From an uncultured Atopobiaceae bacterium (lineage in GTDB: Bacteria > Actinomycetota > Coriobacteriia > Coriobacteriales > Atopobiaceae), in assembly GCA_944320385.1 (NCBI GenBank), contig CALUHH010000003.1, positions 14,638 to 78,637 on the forward strand: a DNA stretch of 64,000 nucleotides. The letters are read 5' to 3'. The notes beneath the pieces were generated by a model. The model was not told the origin of the DNA. It saw only the letters and a list, made by a program, of their open reading frames with translations, and ran no database searches. Shown one piece after another: positions 1,104 through 49,058 of the stretch; position 1 is the first letter of the stretch, and each line of letters starts with the position of its first letter. Both the position numbers and the translations under genes were made by a program.

Positions 1104-1104
1104 C

Positions 1105-2694: not shown

Positions 2695-2713
2695 TTGACC
2701 ACCGGAGTTTGGC

Positions 2714-2894: not shown

Positions 2895-3165
2895 CTTAAG
2901 AAATCGCTCTCATCCGGGAATCGAGCCCCTTGTTGCTTAGAAATCCGCCCTCATCCGGGAGGCGCGCTCCCGAGCGCTTAAGGAATCGCGCCCATCCGAC
3001 GCTGCGGCGCGCTTGTGCTTAGAAAATCGTGCCCGTCCAAGGCTCGCCCTTCCACGATCTTCGGGCGGGCGCGATTCCTTAAGCGCTTGGGGCCCCGTGC
3101 ACCGGACGAGCGCGATTTCTTAAGCGCCGAAACCCGGATTCTCCGGACGGGCGCGATTCCTTAAG
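2895..3165. repeat. Head-to-head 41-bp-period repeat array (family A, copy 1; 4 forward + 3 reverse units)
   Basis: Unit consensus CTTAAGRAATCGYSCCCRTCCGG. Forward units start at 2895, 2936, 2977, 3018; CTTAAG ends of reverse units at 3078, 3119, 3160. Lies between convergent ClC and trxB genes. Confidence 0.92.
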
Positions 3166-3178
3166 CGGTGATGCCCTC

Positions 3179-4129: not shown

Positions 4130-4249
4130 GTCTCTCCCCTCTCGTAAGGTTCCTGGTAAAGGGATACCCCGCTCTCCCCCATCCTATTCAAAATGAGAGG
4201 CGGCGACCAACATTTTGGCCGCCGCCGCGAGAGGTCCGCGATGGACGTG

Positions 4250-5521: not shown

Positions 5522-5550
5522 GGGTCACGCTCCTTTCTTGATTGGCCGAT

Positions 5551-5580
5551 AAGAAAAAGGCCCGGGCGCGCCCGGGCCTT
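5551..5580 (-). terminator. Intrinsic terminator between the two permease genes
   Basis: AAGGCCCGGGC-GC-GCCCGGGCCTT stem followed on the minus strand by TTTTTCTT. Confidence 0.75.
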
Positions 5581-5586
5581 GGCAGT

Positions 5587-6906: not shown

Positions 6907-6978
6907 TAACGAACATCCCTTTCTTTTGCCACGTACAGAACGAGCTATGTCAGTCACGCCCGTGGGCGGAAAGACCAT

Positions 6979-7425
6979 CTAGACGCCGCTTGAGCCAAAG
7001 CCGCCGGCGCCGCGGTCGGTCTCGTCGAGCTCGTCGACCTCGACAAGGCTCACGACGGGGACCCTCTGGATGACGAGCTGGGCGATGCGCTCCCCGCGCT
7101 CGATGCGAATGGGCCGCTCGGCATCGAGGTTCACGGCGCAGACCTTGAGCTCGCCGCGATAGTGGGAGTCGATGAGGCCGGGTGTGTTGGCCATGGAGAG
7201 GCCCTCACGCAGCGCAAGGCCGCTCCGAGGCTGGACGAAGCCGGCGTACCCCTCCGGGATGGCGATGGCGAGGCCGGTGGAAACGAGCCTGCGCTCATGG
7301 GGGGCCAGGGTCACGTCCTCGTTGGAGCGAAGGTCGAGGCCGGCGTCTCCCTCGTAGGCGTAGGTGGGGAGCTCGACGGTGGGGTCGAGCCGCTTGATGG
7401 GAAGGTCGATGCGATCGTCAGTCAT
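6979..7425 (-). CDS. dut: dUTP diphosphatase
   Basis: [29 protein letters not shown] and [10 protein letters not shown] motifs. Confidence 0.97.
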
Positions 7426-7867
7426 TAAGGCTCCTCAGCTCCTCGCTGAACTCGTCAACGTCCTTGAAGTCGCGGTAGACGGAGGCAAAGCGCACGTAGG
7501 CAACCTTGTCGATGGAGACGAGCCTCTTGAGCACCATGCCGCCGAGGTCGACCGACGAGACCTCGGTGATGCCGCCGTCGCGAAGCTCCGACTCGATGTC
7601 GTCGATGAGCGACGAGAGCGTGGAGAGGGGGACGTCGCGCTTGACCGTTGCGGTCACGAGGCCCCTCATGAGCTTCTGTCGGTCGAACGTCTCCTTGCGG
7701 CCGTCGCGCTTGACCACGACGAGCGGCAGCTCCTCGCACCGCTCGTATGTCGTGAACCGGAAACCGCACGAGGCGCACTCGCGGCGGCGCCTGATGGCGT
7801 CATTGCCTTCAGAGGGACGCGAGTCAACGACTTTGGACTCCTCGCACCCGCATTTGGGACAGCGCAT
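7418..7867 (-). CDS. nrdR: Transcriptional repressor NrdR
   Basis: MRCPKC...[18 protein letters not shown] zinc ribbon plus ATP cone ending [12 protein letters not shown]; start placed at ATG 7867. Confidence 0.97.
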
Positions 7868-7965
7868 CTGACCTCCTCGTGAAAATGCACCATGAGAAGG
7901 TATCACAAAACGTTCAAAACTCGAAACTGAGCGCCTGTCCCGAAACGTGACGGAAAGGGACGGCG

Positions 7966-8421
7966 TCAGTCGAGCGCGGCGGAGGGCACCACGAGCGTCT
8001 GCCCCGCGGTGATGAGACCTCCTTCGATGCCGTTGCGATCCTGGATCCAGGACACAAGCTCAGACGTGGGAATATCCGACCCGCAGCTCTCCGCGATGCT
8101 CCAGAGCGAGTCCCCCTGGGAGACGACGACGGAGGCGGTGGGGAGCGCGTCAAGGGCCTCGCGGGCATGCGCGGCGCGCAGCGGGTCGACGACGAGGCAC
8201 GCCAGCAGGATGGCGAGGATGACGACGGCGCCACCGAGCACAAAGCGCATCCCCTGGACGGCATCCGAAGGGTCTGGGACCACGCGCGCATCCGCGCGGA
8301 CGCAGGGCTGCGCCACACGGTGCCCGCGGCCCCCTTCGATGAGCACGAGCCCGCGCGGATTCACGCTCAGGGCGGAGGTGCCGTCTATTGCCGGAAGTGT
8401 CGCAGAGGTGGTGTAGCTCAT
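7966..8421 (-). CDS. Single-TM LysM protein, probable SOS cell-division inhibitor (YneA/ChiZ-like)
   Basis: Hydrophobic segment FVLGGAVVILAILLACLVV, C-terminal LysM VVVSQGDSLWSIA...NGIEGGLITAGQTLVVP; divergent from lexA with LexA boxes in its promoter. Confidence 0.8.
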   Translation of the reverse strand: MSYTTSATLPAIDGTSALSVNPRGLVLIEGGRGHRVAQPCVRADARVVPDPSDAVQGMRFVLGGAVVILAILLACLVVDPLRAAHAREALDALPTASVVVSQGDSLWSIAESCGSDIPTSELVSWIQDRNGIEGGLITAGQTLVVPSAALD

Positions 8422-8493
8422 CGTTATCCCCTTTCGTCTCTTTGCTGAGACGGTTATAGCGTGCCGACCGGACAGAAATTCAACGCGCAATGA

Positions 8494-8583
8494 GAACATC
8501 TGTACCCTATTATGGTGGTACAATTGTTCGTGTCAAGAAGAAACGAACAATTGTTTGCAATTTGGCGCCCTATGGGCTATGAT
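8494..8583. promoter_or_regulatory. Divergent lysM/lexA promoters with three LexA (SOS) boxes
   Basis: lexA promoter TTGCAA(8555-8560)-17 nt-TATGAT(8578-8583); lysM promoter TTGACA(8536-8531)-16 nt-CATAAT(8514-8509). Boxes CGAACAATTGTTTG (8544-8557), CGAACAATTGTAC (minus strand, 8530-8518) and GAACATCTGTAC (8494-8505). Confidence 0.8.
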
Positions 8584-8608
8584 GCGGACACGGACGAAGG
8601 AGGCTCCC

Positions 8609-9256
8609 ATGGCACGAGGCAAACTCGGCAAGCGCCAGCTCGCCATCTACGACTTCATCAAGTCATACTCAGACGAGCACGGATACCCGCCTTCGGTGCG
8701 CGAGATCGGAGCCGCCGTCGGCCTCGCCTCTCCCTCGACCGTTCACATGCACCTCAAGGTCCTCGAGGAGCAGGGTCTGATCAAGAGGGACTCCAAGAAG
8801 CCGCGCACGATCGAGGTCATGGAGAAGCGCGAGGGTGACGACCAGCCCCTGGCAAGCGTCACCCAGGATGTCGACAACAATGTCATTCGCCTGCCGCTCG
8901 TGGGTCGCGTCGCCGCCGGCACGCCCATCCTTGCGGAGCAGAACATCGAGGACACGCTCAGCCTGCCCACCTCCATCGTGAGCGACGCGAGCTCATTCAT
9001 ACTCCGCGTCCGCGGGGAGTCGATGATCAACGCCGGCATCTTCGACGGGGACTACATCGTCGTCAAGGAGCAGCAGGACGCCCACGACGGGGAGATCGTC
9101 GTCGCCCTCATCGACGACTCGGCCACGGTCAAGACCTTCTATCGCGAGCACGACCGCATCCGCCTGCAGCCCGAGAACGACGCCATGGAGCCCATCTACG
9201 TCGACAACCCCGTCATCCTCGGTCGCGTCACGGCGCTCATCCGCTCGATCAGCTGA
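8609..9256 (+). CDS. lexA: SOS repressor LexA
   Basis: GYPPSVREIGAAVGLASPSTVHMHL HTH, VGRVAAGTP cleavage site, LRVRGESM and ATVKTF catalytic motifs; GGAGG RBS. Confidence 0.97.
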   Translation: MARGKLGKRQLAIYDFIKSYSDEHGYPPSVREIGAAVGLASPSTVHMHLKVLEEQGLIKRDSKKPRTIEVMEKREGDDQPLASVTQDVDNNVIRLPLVGRVAAGTPILAEQNIEDTLSLPTSIVSDASSFILRVRGESMINAGIFDGDYIVVKEQQDAHDGEIVVALIDDSATVKTFYREHDRIRLQPENDAMEPIYVDNPVILGRVTALIRSIS

Positions 9257-10029: not shown

Positions 10030-10057
10030 CCGCAGGCCAGACGTTCCAGCCGCCTGC

Positions 10058-10251
10058 TACACAAATCGCCTTTTGTGTATGCGGCGTACACAAATGAGGA
10101 TTTGTGTAGCAGGCAGAAGCGCGCTTGAGCAAAGACTAAGCCCTAAGGTTAATGTCTTTATCGACAAGAACATGCGGCTCCACTGCCCTCCTCGGCCGCG
10201 TACACAAATCGCCTTTTGTGTATGTGGCGTACACAAAAGGCGATTTGTGTG
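10058..10251. repeat. 194-bp MITE/REP-like element (family B, copy 1)
   Basis: 22-bp palindromes TACACAAA-N6-TTTGTGTR at 10058, 10087, 10201 and 10230 (29-bp period within each pair) flank a 92-bp core nearly identical to that at 47725-47816. Confidence 0.9.
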
Positions 10252-27964: not shown

Positions 27965-28295
27965 TCCCGAATGGTTCCTTTCGTGGGTGTCGGTCAGGGC
28001 TATCTAAGCCGGCCACAGGGCCGTGCCAATTCGCATACCGGTTAATTGTAAACGAGAAGAACGAGCCGCTGGCATGTTCCACGATGGCTTCACGGGACGC
28101 GCGGAGGGCGCGGGGCGGGGCGGGGGCGGCCCGCACTTCTCGGCGCGTCTCATCAAGTGCGGGCCGGAGCGCACTGGATCCGAGCACTCGGCGCCAGACG
28201 TCGAGAAGGACCGCGCACTCGACGCGCCGCGGGCCCAAATCCGCCCGCACTCGATGCGCGCACTCACGAGTGCGGGCGCCCAGCGCGGGCGGACG

Positions 28296-28360
28296 CGAGC
28301 ATGCCATGGGGGACGGTTTCGCCGGGCCGGGGCCCGGTTCCGCCCCACATGGCATGCTCG
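28296..28360. repeat. Long hairpin (REP-like family E, copy 2)
   Basis: CGAGCATGCCATG (28296-28308) pairs with CATGGCATGCTCG (28348-28360); left arm GAGCATGCCATGGGGGACGGTTTC resembles 2714 GAGAATGCCATATGGGACGGTTTT. Confidence 0.7.
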
Positions 28361-28370
28361 GCGCGGGGCG

Positions 28371-31300
28371 TCAGCCGCGGGCGGCGAGGTTCGCCACGAG
28401 GGCGGCCGCCTCGGCGCGGGCGAGGGCGCGGCAGGGCTCCAGAAGGCCGTCGCGGCCGTGGAGGACGCCCTCGGCCACGGCCCAGGACACGGCGCCGATG
28501 GCCCACTCGGAGACCTCGGGGGCGTCCGAGAAGGGCGAGAGGTCGGCGGCCGCCCCGGGCCCGCCGGCGGCGCTGCAGAGGACCGCCGCGGCCTGCTCGC
28601 GGGTGAGCGGGTCGTCGGGGCCGAAGGCCGACCCGTCGCCGCAGCCGTGGAAGATCCCCTCCTGGAGGGCCCGGGCCACGGCCCCCGCGTACCAGGCGGA
28701 GGGGTCGCAGTCGGACGGGAGCCCCGAGAGCTCGACCTCGGGCCCGCCCGCGGCGTTGTGGAGCGCGACCGCCCACCGGGAGGCGTGGCCCAGCCTGAGC
28801 CTCGCCACGCCATCGTCGACGACGCCCGAGCACTCGTAGCGCAGCGTTCCCGCGCCTCGTCGTAGCGATACAGGTTGGCGAACAGGCCGTCGCTCTTCTC
28901 GCCGAGAGGGGCGACCAAGGTCAGCTCGAAGCCGAACTCGCCGTCGTGCGCGAGCGTGGCCTGCACGACGCCGGCCTCCGCCGTCACGAGGTCCACCACC
29001 TCGACGGGGATGCCGTCGGTGCCCACCTCAACGCCCATGTCGACGTCCGAGAGGGGCGTCCCCTCCGGCACGTCGCCGCCGCGGATCTCCCACGAGACGC
29101 CCTCGCCCATCTCCAGCACGAGCGTCACGTCGCGGCCTGCGAGCGCCTGGAAGACCTCCTTGTCGAGCTTGGTGTCGCCGGAGCTCAGGGAGATCTTCAC
29201 GGTGTCGCCGTCCTTGGCGCCCCTGATCTTGTCGATGGCCTGCTGGCTGGGGGTCTTGGCGGGCGGAACGTAGGGCGGGGCATAGCTGGTCGTCACGACG
29301 CAGGCGGCCTGCGCGGCGCTGTGGTTGCCGTCACCGGCGTAGGACGCGGTGAAGGTGTAGTCAGCCGTCTGGTTGGGCAGCTCGGCCACCCAGGTGCCGT
29401 CGCTGCCCTCCGTCACGTCGACGTCGCCGTCGCAGGTCACCGTGGCGCTTCCACCGTCGGGCACGCCGGCGAGGGTCAGCGTCACGCGGCCGCCCCCGGA
29501 GAGGGCGGCGGGGTCGGCGGTCAGGGCCAGGGCGGGCGTCACCTTGCTGATCGAGGCCGTCTGCACAGATGCCGTCTCGCTCATGAGGGAGTAGTACGCC
29601 GCGTGCTCGCCTGTCAGGGTTATGCCGGTGGCGGTAATCGTCCTGTTGTTCCCGGCGTCCGCGCTGTCGTAGGCAATCGAGGCGCTGGACGCGGCCACCT
29701 CGTCGCCTTCCAGGACGCCGGTCAGCGCAATGACCAGCCCGTCGGGCGCCGCGGTGGTGCCGTCATAGGTCTTTGAGGTCGTGCCGTCCAGCGCGGCGTC
29801 TACGTACGCCTTTTCCAGCGTCACCGTGACCCCGCCGGTGCTGGGGTTCAGACTGCCGCTTCCGCCGTAGCTGACGGTAAGGGCATTATTGCCGATGGCC
29901 AGTCCCTTGCCCCGAGTGTCGTAGGTCAGCGTGTAGGAGCCGTCAGCATTGGCTGTGGTGGCGCTGGCAAGTACGGCGTCGCCTGTCTTCAGCTCCACGA
30001 CGTCCTGTGCCGTGGTCAGGGCGTTGATGCCGTAGGCAGCGGTCTGTTCGGGCGTGACGGTGATTTTCAGAGTTTCGCCGTAGGTCAGGATGCCCTCAGC
30101 CGGCACGACCGTCAGGGTGCTGTCGGCGCGCTCGGTGGTGACTGGCGTGCCAGCGCTGGCCGGCGACGGCTCGTAGAGGCTGGTCCCGGCATAGCGGGCG
30201 TGGAACATGTAGGTCGTGCCGGGGGTAAGACCATCGAAGGTGGTCCCGGACTGCCAGCGCTCCTCGGGCACGGCGGTCTCACCGCCCGTGGCGTAGCCGT
30301 ACTGAACGGCGCCCTGGCCGACGGTGGTGACGGCGTCCAGGGTGACGCTGTAGGCCGTGGGCGGCGTCGTGGTGCTCGCGGTGGGAGCGCCCGGGGCGGA
30401 CTGCTGCGCCTTGCTGACCGTCAGCGTGGTAGAGCCGGAGCTCTCTATGAGGTCGCTGCCGTCGGCGGGCGTGTAGACGGCGGTGACGGCGTAGTCGCCG
30501 GGGGTCCAGCCAAGCTCGTCGATCGTGTGGGCGGCGATGCCGTTGCCTACGCTCGTCCCGGTGCCGTTCAGAGCGTCGCCGCCCTGATAGAACGTGACGC
30601 TACCGCCGTTGACGGGAGTGCCGTCCTCTTTGACGGTTGCCGTCAGGGTGACGGACCCGCCGTAGGTGGCGGGACTGGGAGACGCGCTCACTTCGACGGC
30701 TGCCATGAAGTCGTTGTCTGCGACGGAAATATCCCCGTTGTTGACGAGGGTACCCTTGCCCGCCAGGGAACCCTGCCCGGCGATCGTGCCGTTGTTGGTG
30801 AGGGTGGTTCCACTGGGGACGGTTATGCTGGCCCCCTCGGGGATGGTCACCGTGGCCCCGTCCGGGATGGTGATGTTGCAGGGCAGGGTCAGGTTACCCC
30901 AAACCGATAGGTATTCTCCTGGCCGGACACGGGGCGGATGCCTTGGCCGTTATCGCCGTCAGTCGTTCCTAGACCGCCACCGATGTCTAATCCGTCAGCG
31001 GTTGTACCCTGGCCATCTCCTCCAGTGACCGTTACATTTCCCGTGGCAAGGATGATAACCGTCCCACAGGCTTCTCCGGCTTCCCCTGAAGCCGGTTTAC
31101 CGCCTATTCCGCTACCACCGCATGTGCCATATGAACTGCCGCCCGTAACAGATAGTCCACCACTGCCCTGGATAACAAGTGAGGAAGACGCTGGTACGTG
31201 GATACCGGGTGCCCCTAGATCAAGACCTCCATTTCCGCCGGTCAAAGCATTGCTTGTATCATTTGCCAAATTCAGCACAAGGCGAGCGTTTTCTCCCACA

Positions 31301-40282: not shown

Positions 40283-41638
40283 CTAGAGCAGCTCGGCGGC
40301 GAGGGTGGCGTCGGGCGAGACACCGACGAGGCGCACCGGGACGAGCGAGTCCACCGGCACCGAGGGGTCGAGCGTCACGTCGAAGAGGCCGCCGGTCACG
40401 CCGCGGCCGGGGTACTGCACCACCACGAGGTCCTTCTCGCCCACCAGGCGGCGCGCCTCGGCCAGGCGCAGCTCGTCGGCAAGCGCGCGGGCCCGGGCTC
40501 CGCGCTCGGCCATCACGTGCGGGTCCACCTGGCCGGGCATCGTCGCGGCGGGGGTGCCGGGGCGGCGCGAGTAGCGGAAGACGTGCATCTTGGCGAAGCG
40601 CATCTCGCGGCAGAAGGCGAGGCTCTGGTCAAAGTCCGCGTCCGTCTCGCCGGGAAAGCCCACGATGAGGTCCGTGCCCAGGGCGACGCCCGGCACGTGC
40701 TCGCGCGCGGTCTCGACCACGCGGCGGAAGAGGTCGGTGCGGTAGACGCGCGCCATGCGGCGCAGGGTCTCGTCGCAGCCGGACTGCAGGCAGACGTGAA
40801 GGAACGGCGCCACGCGCTCGCCGGCAGCGGCCATCGTGGCGCAGAGCTCGGGCGTGACGTCGGGCGGCTCGATCGAGGAGAGGCGGACGCGCTCCACGTC
40901 CGTGCGCTCGAGCAGCAGGTCGAGAAGGCCCGGCAGCCCGAGCTCGCGGCCGTCCGGGCCGGCGGCGCGGTAGCACCCCAGGTTGATGCCCGTGAGCACG
41001 ACCTCGCGCGCGCCGCGCCCCTGGGCCTGGCGCACGGCGAGAAGGACCTCGTCGGCGGCGACCGAGCGCGCCTTGCCGCGCGCCTTCCAGACGATGCAGT
41101 AGGTGCAGCGGTTGTCGCAGCCGTCCTGGACCTTGATGCCGGGGCGGGTGCGGCCGGTGGGCGTGGGCGTGGCGGCGGCCGCGCAGCCCTCGAGCATGCC
41201 GGTGCGGACGGAATCGTCGCCCGCCGGGGCGGAATCTGTCCTGTGCGGCATGCTCGGCGCACCGGCACCCTCGGGTGAGAAGGACGCGAGGCCCAGGCGC
41301 TCGATCACGAGGCCGGCCACGCGCGCCTTGTCGCGCTCGACCACCACGTTGGGCGCGAGCGCGGCGAGCTCGTCAGCAAACAGGCTCGCCACGCAGCCGG
41401 TGGCCACCACGAGCGGCTCCCCCGGCTGCGACGCCGCGCGGCGCACGGCCTTGCGCGCCTTGGCCTCGGCCTCGCCGGTGACGGCGCAGGTGTTCACCAC
41501 GATCGCGTCCGCCTCGCACTCGTCGGCGAGGCGCGCGCCGGCACGCTCGAGCTCGGAGGCCATGAGGTCGAGCTCCACGCGGTTGACGCGGCATCCCAGG
41601 TTGACGAGGGCGACCGCGGGCGCGGCCGGCGTCGTCAC
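40283..41638 (-). CDS. mtaB: MtaB-like methylthiotransferase (radical SAM)
   Basis: [44 protein letters not shown] and RLSSIEP motifs; downstream of dnaJ. Distinct miaB and rimO are present elsewhere in the window. Confidence 0.85.
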
Positions 41639-42879
41639 TTGCGGCTCCTGAACGGGTTTCTGGGGGCGTGCCAGTGCTCCTTGGCAAAGTGCTCGGCCGC
41701 GTTCTCGGCGGCCGCGGAGAAGCCCTCGGCCTCGGGGTCCTTCTCGGCCTTCCGGCCCTTCTGGTCCTTCTCGCCCGCCGGCTCGTCGCCGAGCGCGCGC
41801 TCCGCGACGATGGCGGCGACGTCGAGCAGCTGCTTCTTGGTGAGGTCGCGCGGGGTCTCAACCTGCACGACGGCCACGAGGTTGCCGCGGGCGATCATGC
41901 CCATGCGCGGCATGCCCTTGCGCTCCACGACGACCTGCTGGCCAAACTGGCAGCCCGCCGGCACCTCCACGGTGACGCGCTCGCCCTCCAAGATGCCGTC
42001 GATCGTGACCGTGGTGCCCACGATGGCCTCCAGCGCGTCGACCTTGACCGTGCAGAACAGGTCGTCGCCGCGGCGCTCGAAGCGGTCGCTCTCGGCCACC
42101 TCGACGCTCACCACGAGGTCGCCCGTGGCGTCGCCGCGCACGCCGGCCTCGCCCTTGCCCGGGACGGTGAGGGTCTGCCCGGAGTGGACGCCCGCGGGCA
42201 CCTGGACCTCGACCTTCTCGCGCGACGGCGTGCGGCCCTGGCCCTCGCAGGTCTCGCAGGGGTGGTCGATGACCTGGCCCTGGCCGTGGCAGGCCGGGCA
42301 GGTGGCCTGCGTCTGCATCTGCCCGAAGATCGTGCGCTGGACCTCGACGACGCGGCCCGTGCCGTGGCAGCGCTCGCAGGTGTGCATCTTGCCGCCCTCG
42401 GCGGCGCCGGTGCCGCCGCAGTCCTCGCAGGGGGCGAGGCGCGTGTAGGCGACGGTCTTCTTGCAGCCGGCGGCCGCCTCCTCGAGGGTCACCGTGAGGC
42501 GGATGCCCATGTCGCGACCGCGGGTGCGGGCCTGCGCGCCGGCGCGCCCGGAGGCGCCGCCGAAGAAGGTATCGAAGATGTCGCCGAAGCCAAAGCCGCC
42601 CCCGCCGAAGATGTCGGAGACGTCCACGTAGTCGGACCCGAAGCCGCCGGGGCCGGACGGGTCGCCGTAGCGGTCGTAGTTGGCGCGCTTCTGGTCGTCC
42701 GAGAGCACGGCGTAGGCCTCGTTGACCTCCTTGAAGCGCTCCTCGGCGTCCGGCGCCTTGTTGACGTCGGGGTGCAGGGTGCGGGCCTTCTTGAGGAAGG
42801 CGCGCTTGATCGTCTTGGCGTCGGCGTCACGAGGCACCTCGAGCACCTCGTAGTAGTCCTTCTTCGGTTCCACGTGCAT
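41635..42879 (-). CDS. dnaJ: Chaperone DnaJ
   Basis: J domain with HPD, G/F region, four CxxCxGxG repeats and C-terminal domain; RBS spacing suggests the real start is GTG 42873. Confidence 0.95.
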
Positions 42880-42926
42880 ACTCCAGTGACTTGTCCCAAA
42901 CGTTTCCCGAGTGCCTTATACCCCGG

Positions 42927-42950
42927 AAAAGGCGGGGGCACGCCCCCGCC
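42927..42950 (-). terminator. Hairpin terminator after the DnaJ-like gene
   Basis: GGCGGGGGC-GT-GCCCCCGCC followed by TTTT on the minus strand. Confidence 0.6.
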
Positions 42951-42987
42951 GTTCACAAAGCTATCACTTTTCTGAAGCTACCTGAAG

Positions 42988-44106
42988 CTACCAGTAGTAA
43001 CGCCCCACGTAGCCGCCCCGGCCGAGACCGGCCGTGCAGGAGAACATCAGCGCGAAGACGAGCGCGATCATGAAGCCGTTGGAGATGCCGTTGGCCACGG
43101 CCACGCCGGCGTTTCTCCACCAGCGGGGCGCGAGGCGGATGCCGTCGCGCACCACGAGCACCACGCCCACGACCACGGGGATGATCACCATGAGCGAGAG
43201 CGAGGCGAGGGTCGACGTGGCGAGCCCCAGCACCAGAAACGGGATCGCGAAGCCGATGAAGTTGAAGCCGTTGGCCTGGGAGCGCGTGAGCCGCTCCTCG
43301 GGGACGCAGACGCGGCAGACGAAGTCGCCGGTGGACGAGCCGTTGGTGCCCGCGTTGCCCATTCCGGCCACGCGCACCTCGTCGCCGTCGTGCGCGCCGG
43401 CCGGCACGTCGACCACGACCTCGCTCGCCGTGAGCGTGCGGCCCGAGCCGCCGCAGGCCGCGCAGGGGTCCGCGACGACCTTGCCGGTGCCCTCGCACTC
43501 CGGGCAGGTCATCATCATGACGCCGAAGAGGCCCGTGTCCACGGTGATGTGGCCGGCGCCGCCGCAGGTGGGGCAGGTCTCCGGGCGCTCGGCCTCGACC
43601 GAGCCGGAGCCGTGGCAGACGTCGCAGGTCGCATAGCGCTGGTAGGTCACGCCGCGGCGCACGCCCTCCTTGGCCTGCTCGGCGTCGACGGTGAGCTCGT
43701 AGACCACGTCGGCGCCGGCGCGGGGCCTGTACGCCCGCGAGCGGCGCTGGCGCGACGCGCCGCCGAAGCCGCCGAAGCCGCCGCCGAACGGGCCCCAGCC
43801 GAAGGGGCTGCCGCCGAAGGGGTCGCCGTAGCCGCCGGTGCCGGCGGGGGTGCCGTAGCCGGCGCCCGCCCCCGCGAAGGGGTTGCCGGAGCGCATGGCG
43901 TCGTAGCGCTTGCGCTTGTCGGGGTCCGAGAGCACGGCGTAGGCCTCGGAGACCTCCTTGAAGCGCTCCTCGGCGTCCGGCGCCTTGTTGACGTCGGGGT
44001 GGAGCTTGCGCGCCTTGGTCTGGAACGCCTTGCGGATCTCCTCGGTGGACGCGTCCTTCTCGACCTCGAGGATGGCGTAGTAGTCCTTGTCGTTCATCGA
44101 TGCCAT
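42988..44106 (-). CDS. DnaJ paralogue with zinc finger and C-terminal hydrophobic (TM) segments
   Basis: J domain KLHPDVNK, G/F region, four CxxCxGxG; the C-terminus is FNFIGFAIPFLVLGLA...LMVIIPVVVGVVLVV...FMIALVFALMF instead of a full substrate-binding domain. Confidence 0.85.
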   Translation of the reverse strand: MASMNDKDYYAILEVEKDASTEEIRKAFQTKARKLHPDVNKAPDAEERFKEVSEAYAVLSDPDKRKRYDAMRSGNPFAGAGAGYGTPAGTGGYGDPFGGSPFGWGPFGGGFGGFGGASRQRRSRAYRPRAGADVVYELTVDAEQAKEGVRRGVTYQRYATCDVCHGSGSVEAERPETCPTCGGAGHITVDTGLFGVMMMTCPECEGTGKVVADPCAACGGSGRTLTASEVVVDVPAGAHDGDEVRVAGMGNAGTNGSSTGDFVCRVCVPEERLTRSQANGFNFIGFAIPFLVLGLATSTLASLSLMVIIPVVVGVVLVVRDGIRLAPRWWRNAGVAVANGISNGFMIALVFALMFSCTAGLGRGGYVGRYYW

Positions 44107-44237: not shown

Positions 44238-44708
44238 CTACTCCGAGAGGCGCACCTGCCGGTAGGTCACGCCGCAGCGGTCGAGGATGTTCTTGGAGAT
44301 GCGGTTGTCCTCCGTGCCGTCGTACTTGTCGTCCAGGTAGACGACCTCGCCGATGCCGGCCTGCACCAGGGTCTTGGCGCACTCGTGGCAGGGGAAGAGC
44401 GTGACGTAGACCGTGGCGCCCGTCATGTCCTTGAGCGACCCGCGGTAGTTGAGGATGGCGTTGGCCTCCGCGTGGATGACGTAGTTGTGCTTGTCGTAGA
44501 GCGGGTCGTCGGCGATACCCCAGGGGAACTCGTCGTCGTTGAGGCCGCGCGGGGTGCCGTTGTAGCCCACCGAGAGGATGCGGTGGTTGGTGTCCGCGAT
44601 GCAGGCGCCGACCTGCGTGTTGGGGTCCTTGCTGCGCAGGCTCGCCGCGACGGCGGCCCTCATGAAGAACTCGTCCCAGCTGATGACGTCGGTGCGCTTG
44701 CCCGGCAT
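44238..44708 (-). CDS. dCMP deaminase (ComEB/DCTD-like)
   Basis: RSKDPNTQVGACI, ILSVGYNG, zinc motifs HAEANAI and TLFPCHECAK. Confidence 0.93.
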   Translation of the reverse strand: MPGKRTDVISWDEFFMRAAVAASLRSKDPNTQVGACIADTNHRILSVGYNGTPRGLNDDEFPWGIADDPLYDKHNYVIHAEANAILNYRGSLKDMTGATVYVTLFPCHECAKTLVQAGIGEVVYLDDKYDGTEDNRISKNILDRCGVTYRQVRLSE

Positions 44709-44803
44709 GGCTGCCTCCCTCTCGTGTTTCCGCTGCTAGCATGGCGCATTTGCGCCACGTGCGCAAGGGGCGAGAAGGACGGGCGGGCTGCGGGCGCTTC
44801 TCG

Positions 44804-45115
44804 CCTGGGGTTTGCGCCCCGTCCGGCGCCGGGGCGGCGCCGCGCTTAGGGAATGCGGCCCGTCCGGCGAGAAGGGCATGTTGTGCTTAAAGAATCGCCC
44901 CCGTCTGGCGCTGGGGCGGCGCCGCGCTTAAAGAATCGCTCCCGTCCGGCGAGAAGGGCATGCCGTGCTTAAGAAATCGCCCCCATCCGGACAAATGGCG
45001 GGACGCCCCTCCGGACGGAGACGATTTCTTAAGCACGAACCGGCCCGCCGCCCGAATGGGCCGCGATCCTTAAGCGCGAATCCGCCCGCCGCCCGGACGG
45101 GCCGCGATCTCTAAG
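44804..45115. repeat. Head-to-head 41-bp-period repeat array (family A, copy 2)
   Basis: Forward units at 44845, 44886, 44927, 44968 (plus a degenerate one at 44804); reverse-unit CTTAAG/TCTAAG at 45028, 45069, 45110. Forward spacers alternate CGCYGGGGCGGCGCCGCG and CGAGAAGGGCATGYYGTG. Confidence 0.92.
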
Positions 45116-45155
45116 CGCGCCGCCGACCGCGGCCCAGCCGCTTGGGCAGTCTGTC

Positions 45156-45176
45156 AATTGGGGACTGTCCCCAATT
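45156..45176. repeat. GGGGACTGTCCCC-type palindrome at the 3' end of the oxidoreductase gene
   Basis: AATTGGGGAC-T-GTCCCCAATT, 10-bp perfect arms. Confidence 0.7.
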
Positions 45177-47185
45177 TACAGCTGGTTGGCGGCGGCGTAG
45201 GCGGTGCGGATGGCGCTCGCGATGTCGGCGGTGCGCTCGCCGGAGCAGTCGCCCACCAGCGTCACCGGCACGTCGAGGCCGCTCGCGTCGAAGGGCACGG
45301 CGCGCGAGCCCACCGCCATGACGACCCAGTCGCACGGGATGGTCACGCCCTCGTCGCCGCAGACCGCCTCGACGCCGGCGTCGGTGATCGCGGTCACGCG
45401 CGTGTTGACGTGCTGCTCCACGCCCTTCTCGGCGAACTCCGCCATGATCGTGGGCAGGATGGTCCCGGACTCCCCCGTCGCGATCTGCTCGAGCATCTCC
45501 ACGATGGCCACCTGGCAGCCGCGCGCGAGCAGGTACTCGGCGGTCTCGGTGCCCACGAGGCCTCCGCCGATGACGGCCACGCGGCCCTCGGGCGCGGCCG
45601 CGCCGGCGAGCACGTCCCACGCGGAGACCACGTTGGCACGGTCGGCGCCCGGCACGGGCAGGCACACGTTCTCGGCGCCCACCGCGACGACGACGGCGTC
45701 GAAGCCGGCGAGGTCGGCGGCCGCGACCTCGCGGCCCAGGCGCACGTCGACGCCCAGCGCGGGCAGCTCGCGCTCGTAGTACTCCACGGCGCGCATGATC
45801 TCGGACTTGCGCGGCGGCGCGGCGGCGAGCTCGATCTGGCCGCCGAGGCGCTCGGCACGCTCGAAGAGGGTCACGGCGTAGCCACGCTTGGCGGCCACGC
45901 GCGCGGCCTCGCAGCCGGCGATGCCGCCGCCGACCACGGCCACGCGCTTCTCGCCCTCGCCCGGGCGGATGAAGATCGTGGCCTCGTCGCCGTTCTCGGC
46001 GTTGAGCACGCAGGAGATGCAGCGGCGGCCCTGGATGGCGTCGACGCAACCCTTGTTGCAGTTGAGGCACAGGCGCACCGGCTCGCCGGAGGCCACCTTG
46101 AGGGCGATGTCGGGGTCGGCGAGCAGCGAGCGGCCGTAGCCGATGACGTCTGCCTGGCCGTCCTCGAGGATCTTCTCGCCCGCCTCGGGGGTGACGACGC
46201 GGCCGACCGTGGCCACGGGGATGCCCACGAGGCCCTTCACGCGCTCGGCCACCGGGAGCGTCCAGTTGTAGGGCATCGTGCCCATGGGCGGGATGGTGTC
46301 GCCCATGTTGCCGGTGTGGTTGGCCTGAGCCACCTGGATCATGTCCACGCCCGCCTTCTCCAGCAGCACGGCGAGCTCGCAGGCCTCGTCGGGCTCCAGG
46401 CCGCCCTTGCCGCGCTTGGAGCCGTCCGGGTTGGTCATGATGACGGGGAGCTTGTACTCCACCATGAGGCCGGGCGCGGCCTCCTTGATCGCGGCGACGA
46501 CCTCGAGCGCGTAGCGGACGCGGTTCTCGAAGGGGCCGCCGTAGTCGTCGGTGCGGTGGTTGAGCGCGGTGGAGCACAGCGACCCCACCAGGCGGTCGCC
46601 GTGGACCTCGATGGCGTCGACGCCGGCCTTCTCGGCACGGGCGGCGCAGGCGGCGATGGCGTCCCTGATCTGGGCGAGCTGCTCGACGGTGGCCTCGGAG
46701 ACAAAGTGCTGCATGTCGTGGTGGAGCTTGGCGTAGGCCTGGTTGGCGATCTCCTTGGACTCGGCCATCTTGGCCTGGAAGGTCTCCATGTCGCCGGCGG
46801 CCTGCGCCTTCTGCCCCTCCATCGCCGCCATGCGCGAGGTCATGATGAGCCTGCCCACGCCGGGGACGTCGTACTCGGGGTGGAAGAGCTGCAGGGCGAG
46901 CTTGGCGCCGTGGGCGTGGACGGCGTCGGCGAGCGCGGCGAAGCTCGGGATCTGGGAGTCGTCGCAGAGCTTGGGCGTGGGGCTCGCGGTGTTCACGGGC
47001 GCGACGTCGCCGATGACGATGTAGGAGACCCCGCCCTTGGCGAGGCGCTCGTAGAAGGCGAGGCTGCGCGGGCCGATGGAACCGTCGCGCTCCTCGTAGC
47101 CGGTGGTGAGCGGCGGGAACATGATGCGGTTCTTGAGCGTGAGGTTGCCGACCTTGATCGGCTCGAGCAGCTTGGACGTTGCCAT
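45176..47185 (-). CDS. bilR: OYE-family NADH:flavin oxidoreductase, long form; probable bilirubin reductase
   Basis: TIM-barrel start LKNRIMFPPLTTGYEE, QLFHPEYD, HGDRL at the OYE active-site position (46592-46603), 4Fe-4S motif CLNCNKGC-X11-C, FAD-binding GGGIAG and second Rossmann GGGLVGTETA. The bilR symbol rests on motif recognition, not a search. Confidence 0.72.
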   Translation of the reverse strand: MATSKLLEPIKVGNLTLKNRIMFPPLTTGYEERDGSIGPRSLAFYERLAKGGVSYIVIGDVAPVNTASPTPKLCDDSQIPSFAALADAVHAHGAKLALQLFHPEYDVPGVGRLIMTSRMAAMEGQKAQAAGDMETFQAKMAESKEIANQAYAKLHHDMQHFVSEATVEQLAQIRDAIAACAARAEKAGVDAIEVHGDRLVGSLCSTALNHRTDDYGGPFENRVRYALEVVAAIKEAAPGLMVEYKLPVIMTNPDGSKRGKGGLEPDEACELAVLLEKAGVDMIQVAQANHTGNMGDTIPPMGTMPYNWTLPVAERVKGLVGIPVATVGRVVTPEAGEKILEDGQADVIGYGRSLLADPDIALKVASGEPVRLCLNCNKGCVDAIQGRRCISCVLNAENGDEATIFIRPGEGEKRVAVVGGGIAGCEAARVAAKRGYAVTLFERAERLGGQIELAAAPPRKSEIMRAVEYYERELPALGVDVRLGREVAAADLAGFDAVVVAVGAENVCLPVPGADRANVVSAWDVLAGAAAPEGRVAVIGGGLVGTETAEYLLARGCQVAIVEMLEQIATGESGTILPTIMAEFAEKGVEQHVNTRVTAITDAGVEAVCGDEGVTIPCDWVVMAVGSRAVPFDASGLDVPVTLVGDCSGERTADIASAIRTAYAAANQL

Positions 47186-47384
47186 GAGGGTTCCTCTCCA
47201 TCGGCGATGCGGTCCCCGCCAGCGTAGGGCATGCGGGGGCGCGCACGCAGGAGAGGTCGGAGGGACGCCCGTTCTTCTCGCCGCGCGAGCGAGAAGAACG
47301 CTCTGGTTGAGCCTGAGACTCTGAGGCGACAGACCCTCTAGCAAGCCTCAAGCTCGCAGGTAAGACGGCTTGGAAGCGCCCCTT

Positions 47385-47484
47385 GGAGGGTGTGTACACT
47401 GCCCGGATCCGGACGGTTTGCGTTTCCGCCGGTAGACGAGGTGTCGAGAAGGACGGGCGGGTCGCATGAGTGTACACACCCCCC
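47385..47484. repeat. Family C element (copy 3)
   Basis: GGAGGGTGTGTACAC (47385-47399) faces GTGTACACACCCCCC (47470-47484); internal GAGAAGGACGGGCGGGTCG. Confidence 0.78.
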
Positions 47485-47673
47485 GATGGTTCTTCTCGAC
47501 TGCGGCATGAGGGCCTCCTTCTTGGTCGTCCCGCGCGGACGGATGTCCGCCGTCATTCAGAGAAACTCTATCCAAGCGCATGTCGGCCCACAACCCCCTG
47601 CAACCGAACGGTCGCTCTGGGGAACCGAATAGCACCCGATCGAGGGCTCGGACGAGAAGTGCGCACGGCCCGC

Positions 47674-47867
47674 GACACAAATCGCCTTTTGTGTAAGTGG
47701 TGTACACAAATGAGGATTTGTGTAGCCAGCAGAAGCGGGCTTGAGCAGAGACTAAGCCCTAAGGTTAATGTCTTTATCGACAAGAACATGCGGCTCCACG
47801 GCCCTCCTCGGCCGCGCACACAAATCGCCTTTTGTGTGCGCCGACTACACAAATCGGCTTTTGTGTG
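47674..47867. repeat. 194-bp MITE/REP-like element (family B, copy 2)
   Basis: Palindromes at 47674, 47703, 47817 and 47846; 92-bp core differs from 10109-10200 at about 5 positions; same total length as copy 1. Confidence 0.9.
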
Positions 47868-47879: not shown

Positions 47880-49058
47880 CTAGTCGTCTGCCGCGAGGTC
47901 CCACATGAGGCCGTAGAGCTCGTTGCCGAGGAGCCACCCCCGCTCCGTCGGCACGAGGCGGCCGTCCGCGTCCCAGGCTGCGAGTCCGCGCGAGAGCGCC
48001 CCGTCCACCGCGGCGTCCACGTTCTTCTCGCCCGCCGCCGCCCGCGCGCGCCCGAGCAGCTCCGGGCCCACGCCGCGCGTCATGCGCATGCCGAGCATCA
48101 GGTCCTCCGCCACGGCCTCGCGCACGGTCAGGCGCTCCACGTCGAAGCGCGTGCCCGCGTCGTCGACCTGCACATAGCGCACGCGCGCCGTGCCCGCGCC
48201 GGACGGCTCGCCGCCGAGAAGCGCCGCGAGCCCGTCCCACTCCCCCGCCGCGAGCATGCCCGCCGCCGAGCGGCCCAGTCCGAGGTAGCTCTCGCCCGTC
48301 CAGTACGCGATGTTGTGGGCGCACGCGTGGCCGGGCCGCGCGTAGCTCGCGACCTCGTAGGGACGATAGCCCGCCGCCCCGAGCGCGCGGCGCGCCTCCT
48401 CCATGCACCAGGCCTGGAAGTCGGCGTCCGGCTCGAGCGCGGGCACGTCCGCGGCGCGGCGCGCGAGCGGCGTGCCCTCCTCGAGCGTGAGCGGGTAGAC
48501 CGAGACGTGGTCCGGCACCGCGGCCGCGATGCCGCCCAGCGTGCGCTGCCAGCTCCCCCTCGTCTGGCCGGGCAGGCCGCACATGAGGTCGCAGGAGACG
48601 TCGAGCCCCGCGGCGCGCCCGCGGGCAACGGCCGCGAGCGCCTGCTCCGCGCTGTGGATGCGCCCGATGGCGGCGAGCTCCGCCGGCTCGAGCGTCTGCA
48701 CCCCGAGCGAGACGCGCGTGGCGCCGGCCTCCGCCAGCGCTGCCGCCATGGCGTCGTCGAAGGACTCCGGGTTGGCCTCGCACGTGAGCTCCAAGGGGTC
48801 GCACCACGACCGCACGCGGCGCACGAGACCCGCCAGGCGCGGCCCCAGCACCGTGGGCGTGCCGCCGCCCACGTAGGCCGTGCGCACGCCCGCGAGCGCG
48901 CCGGCCGCGCCAAAGGCGTCGATCCGGGCGAGCAGGCCATCGAGGTAGCGCGCCGCCGCGTCCTCGAGCGCCGCGCCGCACAGGGCACGCGAGTCAAAGT
49001 CGCAGTAGGCGCACTTTGCGTGGCAGAACGGTATGTGCAGGTAGAGCGCGGAGATCAT
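47880..49058 (-). CDS. hemW: Radical SAM heme chaperone HemW (HemN-like)
   Basis: LYLHIPFCHAKCAYCDF, YVGGGTPT, TCEANPES, RVSLGVQ, HVSVYPLTLEEGT, YEVASYA and HNIAYW. Confidence 0.92.
   Translation of the reverse strand: MISALYLHIPFCHAKCAYCDFDSRALCGAALEDAAARYLDGLLARIDAFGAAGALAGVRTAYVGGGTPTVLGPRLAGLVRRVRSWCDPLELTCEANPESFDDAMAAALAEAGATRVSLGVQTLEPAELAAIGRIHSAEQALAAVARGRAAGLDVSCDLMCGLPGQTRGSWQRTLGGIAAAVPDHVSVYPLTLEEGTPLARRAADVPALEPDADFQAWCMEEARRALGAAGYRPYEVASYARPGHACAHNIAYWTGESYLGLGRSAAGMLAAGEWDGLAALLGGEPSGAGTARVRYVQVDDAGTRFDVERLTVREAVAEDLMLGMRMTRGVGPELLGRARAAAGEKNVDAAVDGALSRGLAAWDADGRLVPTERGWLLGNELYGLMWDLAADD

What the first reader, a model, noticed from the sequence alone, without database searches (positions are those of the whole stretch)
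45176..47185. Probable bilirubin reductase (BilR, long form) in a Coriobacteriia genome
Seen: OYE TIM barrel with HGDR at the position where most OYE/2,4-dienoyl-CoA reductase-type enzymes have H-x-x-H/N-G-Y, plus a CX2CX3CX11C cluster motif and fused FAD/NAD(P)H domains. Established: HGDR is the conserved active-site motif of the gut bilirubin reductase BilR (Hall et al., Nat Microbiol 2024), reported mainly from Firmicutes. Inference: this organism may reduce bilirubin to urobilinogen. No adjacent MarR (bilQ-like) or separate bilS-like gene is present, consistent with a standalone long form. There is also an Ala/Met/Glu/Lys-rich helical stretch (SRMAAMEGQKAQAAGDMETFQAKMAESKEIANQ) after FHPEYD near the substrate pocket that could change specificity.
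Basis: partly seen in the sequence, partly recalled or inferred. Interest (0 to 1): 0.8.

Follow-up and report, generated by a model that had tools for sequence, protein, structure and literature searches.

The report
Known insertion-type bilirubin reductase gene
The gene is an intact, ordinary copy of the gut-bacterial bilirubin reductase BilR (long, "insertion" subtype) in an Atopobiaceae genome, and near-identical copies from the same group of bacteria are already listed in the paper that discovered BilR, so the call is correct but not new.

Summary
Window 45176-47185, minus strand, encodes an intact 669-aa protein with an OYE TIM barrel, HGDR at residues 195-198, CX2CX3CX11C at 373-392 and a fused FAD/NAD(P)H domain.

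It is a BilR:
- NCBIfam "bilirubin reductase, long form" scores 1039 bits (cut-off 750).
- In a tree it lies inside the single HGDR clade (support 100).
- The AlphaFold model (pLDDT 95.5) has the FadH/NCR three-domain fold.

The Ala/Met/Glu/Lys-rich stretch is a 28-residue extension of a helical hairpin. It matches the published "BilR-insertion" subtype and has the same position and length in Faecalibacillus intestinalis BilR, which was expressed as a bilR-bilV operon. R. gnavus BilR lacks it.

The novelty premise fails. Hall et al. 2024's supplement lists at least 344 Coriobacteriia BilRs, including a Thermophilibacter pullicola protein about 97% identical by eye, with the same insertion string.

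Two 2026 preprints show BilR reduces only the methine bridges, and a vinyl reductase, BilV, completes urobilinogen. This genome has a BilV orthologue (AHAH motif) on another contig.

bilR sits in a variable site between hemW and a deaminase gene. Same-genus genomes show empty, differently filled and pseudogenised versions.

Verdict: correct, already known, low interest.

The parts
45176..47185 (-). bilR, long-form insertion-type bilirubin reductase, 669 aa plus stop
   Evidence: ORF and translation. NCBIfam NF045599 1039 bits against a 750 cut-off, and NF045592 514.7 against 425. Inside the HGDR clade.
47193..47199 (-). Shine-Dalgarno-like GGAGAGG upstream of the ATG
   Evidence: Read directly from the sequence.
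46082..47173 (-). OYE / FMN TIM-barrel domain, residues 5-368
   Evidence: Pfam PF00724, E = 3.8e-47. AF2 model with Foldseek matches to 1PS9 and 6QKG.
46592..46603 (-). HGDR active-site motif, residues 195-198
   Evidence: The motif is defined, and D/R shown to be required, in PMC10769871.
46745..46828 (-). 28-residue insertion, residues 120-147, that lengthens a helical hairpin (helices 107-129 and 133-164)
   Evidence: Alignment A1. Same length in F. intestinalis BilR and absent from R. gnavus BilR. Conserved within the clade. Helix-turn-helix with block-mean pLDDT of 91-98.
46010..46069 (-). CX2CX3CX11C motif for the [4Fe-4S] cluster, C373/C376/C380/C392
   Evidence: All four Cys are invariant across the 79 sequences of alignment A2.
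45281..45946 (-). FAD / NAD(P)H-binding domains, with GxGxxG at residues 419-424 and 540-545
   Evidence: Pfam PF07992 and PF00070; motifs.
44797..47866 (.). About 3.07-kb segment (bilR plus both flanking spacers) present here where the same-genus genome G010 has about 99 bp between hemW and the deaminase gene
   Evidence: blastn of the region against the empty site in L090; synteny.
45150..45181 (.). 32-bp palindromic dispersed repeat overlapping the bilR stop codon; probably a terminator or REP-like element
   Evidence: About 110 places in the genome.
44817..45119 (.). Arrays of 41/82-bp repeat units downstream of bilR, with related copies on many contigs
   Evidence: TRF; blastn against the genome.
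47668..47867 (.). 200-bp dispersed repeat upstream of bilR, with an 89%-identical copy at window 10052-10251
47880..49058 (-). Upstream neighbour: hemW/hemN-like radical SAM gene
   Evidence: Pfam PF04055. The hemW label rests on its conserved position next to lepA and is an inference.
44238..44708 (-). Downstream neighbour: cytidine/deoxycytidylate-type deaminase, tadA-like
   Evidence: Pfam PF00383.

Best explanation
The gene is bilR, a long-form, insertion-subtype bilirubin reductase of the Old Yellow Enzyme / 2,4-dienoyl-CoA-reductase superfamily.

Inferred mechanism, by homology with FadH and with published BilR work:
1. NAD(P)H reduces FAD in the C-terminal domains.
2. Electrons pass through the [4Fe-4S] cluster (C373/C376/C380/C392) to FMN in the TIM barrel.
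3. FMN delivers a hydride to a methine-bridge C=C of bilirubin (biliverdin is also accepted by the one BilR tested on it, C. difficile BilR-S).
4. D197 or R198 of the HGDR loop supplies the proton.

The product of BilR alone is divinyl-urobilinogen. A second OYE paralogue, BilV (AHAH motif), lies elsewhere in this genome at G000:C13:32654-34600 and reduces the two vinyl groups. Together the organism is therefore predicted to make urobilinogen.

The 28-residue insertion lengthens a helical hairpin in the beta3/alpha3 excursion of the barrel and is the hallmark of the published BilR-insertion clade. Its role is unknown.

Shown here: sequence, motifs, family membership, fold, the paralogue and the genomic context. 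Inferred: cofactors, electron path, substrate and products.
For: Family and tree:
- NCBIfam bili_reduct_long scores 1039 bits (cut-off 750) and bili_reduct_N 514.7 (cut-off 425). The next family, BaiCD, scores only 418.7 against a cut-off of 825.
- HGDR, the four Cys and both GxGxxG motifs are present.
- In the ML tree of 89 OYE proteins, the HGDR-bearing proteins form one clade (SH-aLRT 100; it also holds one row, P0137, without a detectable HGDR).
- The window protein nests in the insertion subclade (97-99) with Olsenella and Collinsella aerofaciens ATCC 25986 (77% identical).
- That subclade lies beside the 380-aa short form, and inside the 'bilirubin reductase, long form' proteins of C. 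perfringens, Romboutsia and Terrisporobacter.

Published sequences:
- Thermophilibacter pullicola BilR is about 97% identical by eye over the ~400 residues printed.
- F. intestinalis BilR has an insertion of the same length. It was expressed as a bilR-bilV operon that gave urobilinogen.
- The validated R. gnavus BilR lacks the insertion and has HGDR at 164-167.

Structure:
- AF2 gives pLDDT 95.5 and pTM 0.92. The insertion is a confident helix-turn-helix.
- Foldseek gives TM 0.82-0.83 to 1PS9 (FadH) and 6QKG.

BilV paralogue:
- It has AHAH at residue 171 and a loop three residues longer than in BilR, as published.
- It has 73%-identical orthologues in Collinsella whose first 28 residues match the published C. 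aerofaciens_AN BilV exactly.
- bilR and bilV are adjacent, 18 bp apart, in a family member, G167.
- Nine of the 12 BilV-positive Atopobiaceae genomes also carry BilR.
Against: - No enzyme from Atopobiaceae or Collinsella has been assayed. Russell et al. say only that Collinsella is 'likely capable'.
- The insertion subtype has been tested only as a bilR-bilV operon from F. intestinalis, never alone.
- The window protein is only about 53-56% identical to the closest no-insertion BilRs, including C. perfringens. I could not compute its identity to the validated R. gnavus BilR.
- The ISME J paper that defines the three subtypes could not be read. Equating this insertion with 'BilR-insertion' therefore rests on clade position and on it being the only length difference.
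- The host of this bacterium is unknown. Its closest named relatives come from poultry, whose main bile pigment is biliverdin.
Confidence: 0.87

Rival explanations
1. It belongs to the BilR clade, but its physiological substrate is another bilin or tetrapyrrole-like compound. Candidates are biliverdin, mesobilirubin made by BilV, and dietary or phycobilin-type pigments. The insertion would tune that preference.
For: The one BilR tested on it, C. difficile BilR-S, also reduces biliverdin. Jiang et al. propose that the subtypes have distinct substrate preferences. The closest named relatives are poultry-derived (Candidatus Olsenella avistercoris, T. pullicola, T. avicola), and birds excrete mainly biliverdin. 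The insertion is conserved about as well as the rest of the protein within the clade.
Against: All assayed BilRs reduce bilirubin, and the HGDR loop is unchanged. Co-occurrence with BilV points to the bilirubin-to-urobilinogen route. There are no data showing that any subtype excludes bilirubin.
Confidence: 0.1
2. It is a generic Fe-S flavoenzyme ene-reductase, of the 2,4-dienoyl-CoA reductase, enoate reductase or BaiCD/BaiH bile-acid reductase type, and the HGDR motif is coincidental.
For: It shares the fold and cofactor motifs with FadH and NCR. BaiCD and the mycofactocin OYE models give strong but sub-threshold scores.
Against: BaiCD scores 418.7 against a cut-off of 825, and mycofact_OYE_2 scores 345.7 against 793, whereas both BilR models are exceeded. 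The protein lies deep inside the HGDR clade, which is separated from 58 other OYE representatives at support 100. HGDR replaces the FadH catalytic Tyr region.
Confidence: 0.02
3. The gene is a decaying or silent accessory gene in this strain, so the organism does not reduce bilirubin in practice.
For: bilR is patchy within the genus, found in about 7 of about 31 genomes, and G019 carries a pseudogene at the same site. No sigma-70-like promoter was found in the 694-bp upstream spacer. The gene is flanked by dispersed repeats.
Against: The ORF is intact, full length and 88-96% identical to orthologues, with all catalytic and cofactor motifs kept and a good RBS. GC3 of 0.96 matches the host genes. 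The promoter scan uses an E. coli-type consensus, which is a weak test in a 68% GC actinobacterium.
Confidence: 0.05

Closest known systems
BilR of Thermophilibacter pullicola (GCA_019117265.1), listed as 'Long' in Supplementary Table 1 of Hall et al. 2024 (PMC10769871)
   Same: About 97% identical by eye over the ~400 residues printed. It has the identical insertion string SRMAAMEGQKAQAAGDMETFQAKMAESKEIANQ, the same HGDR context and the same Cys motif region. It belongs to the same family, Atopobiaceae.
   Different: I counted about 13 substitutions by eye over the ~400 residues printed; for example, the window has C389 where relatives have Y. Identity was not computed by a tool, because the sequence could not be passed on.
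BilR of Faecalibacillus intestinalis (insertion subtype), expressed in E. coli as a bilR-bilV operon (Jiang et al. 2026, PMC13252198)
   Same: Same three-domain architecture, HGDR motif and Cys motif. There are 44 residues between FHPEYD and YAKLHHDMQHF in both proteins, so the insertion has the same position and length.
   Different: The residues inside the insertion differ substantially. In F. intestinalis bilV is adjacent, whereas here bilV lies on another contig.
BilR of Ruminococcus (Mediterraneibacter) gnavus, WP_009244284.1, the validated long form with the D166A/R167A control (Hall et al. 2024)
   Same: Long form with a fused FAD/NAD(P)H domain, HGDR and the Cys cluster motif. It also stands alone without bilS, and bilV is at a separate locus.
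   Different: It lacks the 28-residue insertion, so HGDR is at 164-167 rather than 195-198. It lies in a more basal part of the clade. The 50%-cluster representative with the same HGDR position (P0130) is 43-44% identical to the window protein.
BilR-short plus BilS (C. symbiosum, C. difficile; bilQRS operon)
   Same: Same TIM barrel with HGDR. In my tree a 380-aa short form is a near neighbour of the insertion clade and carries an 11-residue partial insertion.
   Different: The short form lacks the fused FAD/NAD(P)H domains and relies on a separate flavodoxin-like BilS with a MarR regulator BilQ. Neither is present near the window gene.
[quoted passage not shown]
   Same: Same three-domain fold (TM 0.82-0.83) and the same inferred FMN / [4Fe-4S] / FAD / NAD(P)H electron path.
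   Different: Only 24-27% identical. The HGDR loop replaces the FadH Tyr166 region. The helical hairpin interrupts the sequence alignment, which falls into two matched stretches. The substrates are CoA thioesters rather than bilins.

Membership tests
BilR (bilirubin reductase, clade 1 of Hall et al. 2024) | HGDR motif in the active-site loop of the OYE barrel | tested here: met
   HGDR at residues 195-198, aligned with the HGDR of named long-form BilRs. Definition in PMC10769871.
BilR (bilirubin reductase, clade 1 of Hall et al. 2024) | Only the expected domains: PF00724 plus PF07992 for the long form | tested here: met
   Pfam gives PF00724 over residues 5-368 and PF07992/PF00070 in the C-terminal half. 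The other hits are overlapping Rossmann-type families on the same stretch.
BilR (bilirubin reductase, clade 1 of Hall et al. 2024) | Score above a curated BilR profile threshold | tested here: met
   NF045599 1039 bits against a 750 cut-off, and NF045592 514.7 against 425. C. perfringens BilR scores 1037, and the BilV paralogue only 427. The authors' own HMM was not available.
BilR (bilirubin reductase, clade 1 of Hall et al. 2024) | Phylogenetic placement inside the clade that holds validated BilRs | tested here: met
   Inside the HGDR clade (SH-aLRT 100), together with proteins that NCBI names bilirubin reductase. The validated R. gnavus and F. intestinalis sequences were compared only by eye from the supplement and were not in the tree.
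BilR (bilirubin reductase, clade 1 of Hall et al. 2024) | Reduces the bilirubin methine bridges; activity lost in a D/R-to-A mutant | not testable with these tools
   This needs a biochemical assay.
BilR-insertion subtype (Dufault-Thompson et al. 2024; Jiang et al. 2026) | Additional sequence region relative to BilR-basal, in a clade distinct from short and basal | tested here: met
   A 28-aa insertion at residues 120-147 accounts for nearly all of the 29-residue length difference from the 640-aa forms. The insertion clade has 97-99 support. Caveat: the defining paper was not held, so its exact boundaries were not checked.
BilR-insertion subtype (Dufault-Thompson et al. 2024; Jiang et al. 2026) | Frequent co-occurrence with bilV (66% of insertion-type species) | tested here: met
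   A BilV orthologue lies at G000:C13:32654-34600. It is not adjacent to bilR here, though the two are adjacent in G167.
BilR-short / BilRS system | About 380-aa barrel-only BilR with a separate flavodoxin-like BilS and a MarR-type BilQ | tested here: not met
   The protein is 669 aa with fused domains, and no MarR or flavodoxin gene is among the ten neighbouring genes scanned against Pfam.
BaiCD bile-acid Fe-S flavoenzyme (NF041087) | Score above the equivalog cut-off | tested here: not met
   418.7 bits against a cut-off of 825.
BilV (bilinoid vinyl reductase), applied to the paralogue on contig C13 and not to the window gene | AHAH motif in a loop three residues longer than in BilR, and membership of the published BilV set | tested here: met
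   AHAH at residue 171 and the three-residue longer loop. The 73%-identical Collinsella orthologues begin with the exact first 28 residues of the published C. aerofaciens_AN BilV. No curated BilV HMM was available, and activity was not tested.

The most novel reading that the evidence does not exclude
The most novel reading not excluded is that the conserved 28-residue hairpin extension is functional. It might shift preference among bilirubin, mesobilirubin and biliverdin, or mediate contact with BilV. Alongside this, bilR in this genus would be a strain-variable cargo of a repeat-rich recombination hot spot between hemW and the deaminase gene, so that bilirubin reduction is gained, swapped for other cargo (thiamine genes) and lost by decay within a single genus. 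Neither point has been shown experimentally, and the first was already raised as a hypothesis by Jiang et al. 2026.
Probability: 0.3. Interest if true: 0.4.

Novelty: already known. Interest (0 to 1): 0.12.

Why it matters
BilR and BilV together set how much bilirubin the gut turns into excretable urobilinoids. That matters for jaundice, pigment gallstones and bilirubin-linked metabolic traits.

For this window the practical outcome is an annotation. The genome carries both genes of the published pathway, and standard pipelines would already name bilR. It adds no new enzyme class, taxon or architecture.

The modest added value is twofold:
- A clear case within one genus of presence, absence and pseudogene polymorphism of bilR at one chromosomal site.
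- A confident model showing that the subtype-defining insertion is a lengthened helical hairpin.

Tried and rejected
- **ISME J 2024 paper that defines BilR-basal/short/insertion.** It is not held, by PMC id or by DOI, and no preprint was found. I relied on Jiang et al. 2026 and on my own alignment.
- **Named validated BilRs for the tree.** The listing of cluster members returned no useful names. A second homologue search gave C. perfringens, Romboutsia and Terrisporobacter but not R. gnavus. The R. gnavus, F. intestinalis and T. pullicola sequences were read from the supplement but could not be passed to tools, so those comparisons are by eye.
- **Distance from the insertion to the FMN/HGDR site.** The structure tool returns no coordinates, so the claim 'near the substrate pocket' could not be checked.
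- **Rfam scan of the window.** No RNA family reached the gathering score, so no known riboswitch lies upstream of bilR.
- **Promoter scan.** No sigma-70-like site was found. This is uninformative in a 68% GC genome.
- **hemW next to bilR as a functional haem link.** Rejected. lepA-hemW-deaminase-dnaJ is the conserved backbone in genomes without bilR, and in Collinsella bilR lies in a different context.
- **GDSL esterase downstream of bilV as a possible acyl-glucuronide esterase partner.** Rejected. The adjacency is seen only in the nearest relative, not in Olsenella sp. or Collinsella.
- **bilV adjacent to bilR in the Collinsella loci fetched.** Not seen within 8 kb in any of them. In two complete-ish genomes the genes are more than 300 kb apart.
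Full report
**1. The observation**

The feature is real and the coordinates are exact, but the gene is on the minus strand.
- Window 47185 to 45176 is one ORF of 669 codons, starting MATSKLLEPIKVGN..., with GGAGAGG 8 nt upstream of the ATG.
- Its codon-position GC (GC3 0.96) matches the surrounding genes of this roughly 68-70% GC genome, whereas the overlapping ORFs on other frames do not.
- HGDR is at residues 195-198. C373-x2-C376-x3-C380-x11-C392 is present, and GxGxxG motifs lie at 419 and 540.
- Pfam finds Oxidored_FMN (residues 5-368, E = 3.8e-47) and Pyr_redox_2/Pyr_redox in the C-terminal half.

**2. What it is**

*Profiles.* NCBIfam's curated model NF045599 'bilirubin reductase, long form' scores 1039 bits against a cut-off of 750. 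The N-domain model NF045592 scores 514.7 against 425. The next families stay far below their cut-offs: BaiCD 418.7 against 825, and mycofactocin OYE 345.7 against 793. A named C. perfringens BilR scores 1037 on the same model, and the genome's other OYE paralogue only 427. NCBI's own annotation pipeline would therefore name this gene bilirubin reductase. Relatives 75-78% identical already carry that name in public records, for example from Paratractidigestivibacter and a Lachnospiraceae MAG.

*Tree.* I built a maximum-likelihood tree of 89 proteins. It held the window protein, close and distant HGDR proteins, a 380-aa short form, 58 non-HGDR representatives from an exhaustive profile search, and the genome's paralogue.
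- The HGDR-bearing proteins form one clade with SH-aLRT 100. One further row in it, P0137, has no detectable HGDR and matches the BilR model only from model position 131 onward.
- Inside it, the window protein sits in a well-supported (97-99) subclade whose members all have HGDR near position 195.
- That subclade includes an Atopobiaceae MAG (96%), Olsenella sp. (79%) and Collinsella aerofaciens ATCC 25986 (77%).
- The short form and an Erysipelotrichaceae cluster are the next neighbours. 640-aa forms from C. perfringens, Romboutsia and Terrisporobacter, which lack the insertion, lie further out.

*Published sequences.* The supplementary table of Hall et al. 2024 prints BilR sequences.
- R. 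gnavus BilR, validated with the D166A/R167A control, has 19 residues where the window protein has 47 between FHPEYD and (L/M)(H/R)HDM. The window protein therefore carries a 28-residue insertion, about residues 120-147.
- F. intestinalis BilR has exactly the same spacing as the window protein. It was expressed as a bilR-bilV operon and yielded urobilinogen.
- The insertion accounts for nearly all of the 29-residue length difference from the 640-aa forms, and it defines a clade. It therefore corresponds to the published 'BilR-insertion' subtype, which is reported to 'carry an additional sequence region' and to co-occur with bilV. The ISME J paper that defines the subtypes was not available.

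*Structure.* AlphaFold2 on a 79-sequence alignment gives pLDDT 95.5 and pTM 0.92.
- Residues 107-129 and 133-164 form two long helices joined by the conserved A-G-D turn. The insertion thus lengthens a helical hairpin by about 14 residues per arm.
- Within the clade the insertion is conserved about as well as the rest of the protein. A127, G131 and K139 are invariant and E142 is nearly so, although the sample is dominated by Collinsella.
- Foldseek finds the three-domain Fe-S flavoenzymes 1PS9 (FadH) and 6QKG (NCR) at TM 0.82-0.83.
- No BilR structure is in the PDB.
- The tool returns no coordinates, so I could not test whether the hairpin is 'near the substrate pocket'.

**3. How it most likely works**

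By homology with FadH and the published BilR models, electrons flow from NAD(P)H to FAD, then to the [4Fe-4S] cluster, then to FMN. FMN transfers a hydride to a C=C of the substrate, and the D/R pair of HGDR donates the proton. This path is inferred and was not shown here.

Two 2026 preprints revise the chemistry. BilR reduces only the two methine bridges and yields divinyl-urobilinogen. A second OYE enzyme, BilV, with AHAH in a loop three residues longer, reduces the vinyl groups.

The window genome has exactly one other long OYE paralogue, at G000:C13:32654-34600. It is 649 aa, 33% identical to BilR, has 'VEIHAAHAHGLLGG' with AHAH at residue 171, and shows the three-residue longer loop.
- Its orthologues are 98% identical in the Atopobiaceae MAG, 77% in Olsenella sp. 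and 73% in three Collinsella genomes.
- The Collinsella orthologues begin with the exact first 28 residues printed for the published C. aerofaciens_AN BilV.
- In another family member, G167, bilR and bilV are adjacent with an 18-bp spacer and an RBS.

The genome is therefore predicted to encode the complete bilirubin-to-urobilinogen route, at two separate loci, as in R. gnavus.

**4. Context**

The window is core chromosome: ftsK, RNase J, PNPase, recO, era, ybeY, phoH, a MiaB-like gene, two dnaJ genes, a deaminase, [bilR], a hemW-like gene, lepA, holA, comEC and thiI. No MarR or flavodoxin gene is nearby, which agrees with a standalone long form.

The same order, lepA-hemW-bilR-deaminase-dnaJ, occurs in the Atopobiaceae MAG, Candidatus Olsenella avistercoris and Olsenella sp.. 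Collinsella bilR lies in a different context. Within the genus the site varies:
- G010, G002 and G009 have hemW directly followed by the deaminase gene.
- G175 carries thiC-thiE-thiD there.
- G019 has a bilR remnant lacking codons 131-473, with a frameshift.

Against the empty site of G010, window 44797-47866 (about 3.07 kb) replaces about 99 bp. Both spacers are built from dispersed repeats:
- a 32-bp palindrome overlapping the stop codon, found at about 110 genomic places;
- 41/82-bp repeat units downstream of bilR;
- a 200-bp repeat upstream, with an 89% copy at window 10052-10251.

Distribution in the genomes searched:
- BilR over the cut-off, or above 90% identity, in about 7 of about 31 genomes of the genus.
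- BilR in 17 of 201 genomes of the family. BilV in 12 of 201. Both in 9.

**5. Comparison with what is known, and novelty**

- Supplementary Table 1 of Hall et al. 2024 holds at least 344 Coriobacteriia rows: 335 Collinsella, 3 Thermophilibacter, 3 Parolsenella and 1 Paratractidigestivibacter. It holds 275 Firmicutes rows.
- The Thermophilibacter pullicola entry is about 97% identical by eye to the window protein over the ~400 residues printed, with an identical insertion string. The window genome is therefore most likely a Thermophilibacter (GTDB) / Olsenella-like species.
- Russell et al. 2026 report BilR plus BilV in 930 of 1058 Collinsella genomes.
- Jiang et al. 2026 describe the insertion subtype and its link to bilV.

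The enzyme, the taxon, the architecture, the insertion and the partner gene are all published. The gene is already known.

**6. Verdict**

The identification is correct (confidence about 0.87 for a bilin methine-bridge reductase orthologous to BilR). Novelty is nil and interest is low (0.12).

What remains open is untested anywhere for this subclade:
- direct activity of an Atopobiaceae or Collinsella BilR;
- the role of the 28-residue hairpin extension;
- the gain and loss dynamics at the hemW-deaminase site.

Noticed in passing
G000:C13:32654-34600 (L001 8655-10604, + strand); outside the window: A second long OYE paralogue of 649 aa with an AHAH motif at residue 171. It is orthologous (73%) to the published Collinsella BilV, so the genome carries both genes of the bilirubin-to-urobilinogen pathway at separate loci.
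   Followed up: yes
L094 (G019:C12) 86-1068: A same-genus genome has a decayed bilR directly downstream of hemW. Codons 131-473 are deleted and the N-terminal pieces overlap in different frames, yet its bilV is intact (93% identical).
   Followed up: partly
L092 (G175:C1) 4120-9245; L090, L091 and L093 for the empty sites: The hemW-deaminase spacer is a variable site. It is empty in three same-genus genomes, holds bilR in others, and holds thiC-thiE-thiD in G175.
   Followed up: partly
window 45150-45181: The 32-bp palindromic element TCTGTCAATTGGGGACTGTCCCCAATTTACAG overlaps the bilR stop codon. It occurs at about 110 places on 30 contigs of the genome, in both orientations, and is probably a REP or terminator-like repeat.
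   Followed up: partly
window 44817-44990, 45022-45119 and 47668-47867 (copy at window 10052-10251): Both spacers flanking bilR consist of dispersed repeat families: 41/82-bp units downstream, and a 200-bp unit with ACACAAATCG..TTTTGTGT hairpins upstream. The downstream block is absent from the closest bilR loci (L002, L003). Copies lie at several contig ends, so the repeats probably fragment the assembly.
   Followed up: partly
window 47880-49058, compared with L002, L004 and L090-L094: The hemW-like gene is only 46-54% identical between some members of the genus or family and 80-88% in others. The flanking lepA and deaminase genes stay at 82-99%. This suggests two divergent hemW alleles or a replacement by recombination next to the variable site.
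   Followed up: no
L005 (CAVIBB010000016.1, 'Paludibacteraceae') and L029 (CAVKNR010000144.1, 'Sodaliphilus'): Two contigs filed under Bacteroidota MAGs carry Atopobiaceae- or Collinsella-type bilR. L005 also has full Olsenella-like synteny (lepA 91%). They are probably misbinned contigs rather than BilR in Bacteroidota.
   Followed up: partly
L095 (G167:C172) 150-3953: In another genus of the family, bilR (HGDR at 195) and bilV (AHAH at 171) are adjacent on one strand, with an 18-bp spacer containing an RBS. This is an operon form of the pair that is split in the window genome.
   Followed up: yes
window 46019-46021 (residue C389): The window BilR has GRRCISC where T. pullicola, F. intestinalis and Collinsella have an aromatic residue (Y). 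This adds a fifth Cys three residues before the fourth cluster ligand.
   Followed up: no
window 41635-44106: Two tandem dnaJ paralogues, about 43% identical to each other, lie downstream of the deaminase gene. The arrangement is conserved across the genus.
   Followed up: no
window 28004-30850 (-): A 948-aa protein with a bacterial Ig-like domain (Big_3_5) and a YDG domain lies in a stretch of lower GC and atypical codon-position GC. It may be a surface protein of foreign origin.
   Followed up: no
P0132 / P0274 (380-aa short BilR representatives): This short form carries an 11-residue partial version of the insertion and groups with the insertion clade (support 99). That hints that the short form derives from an insertion-bearing ancestor, or that the insertion grew in steps.
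   Followed up: partly
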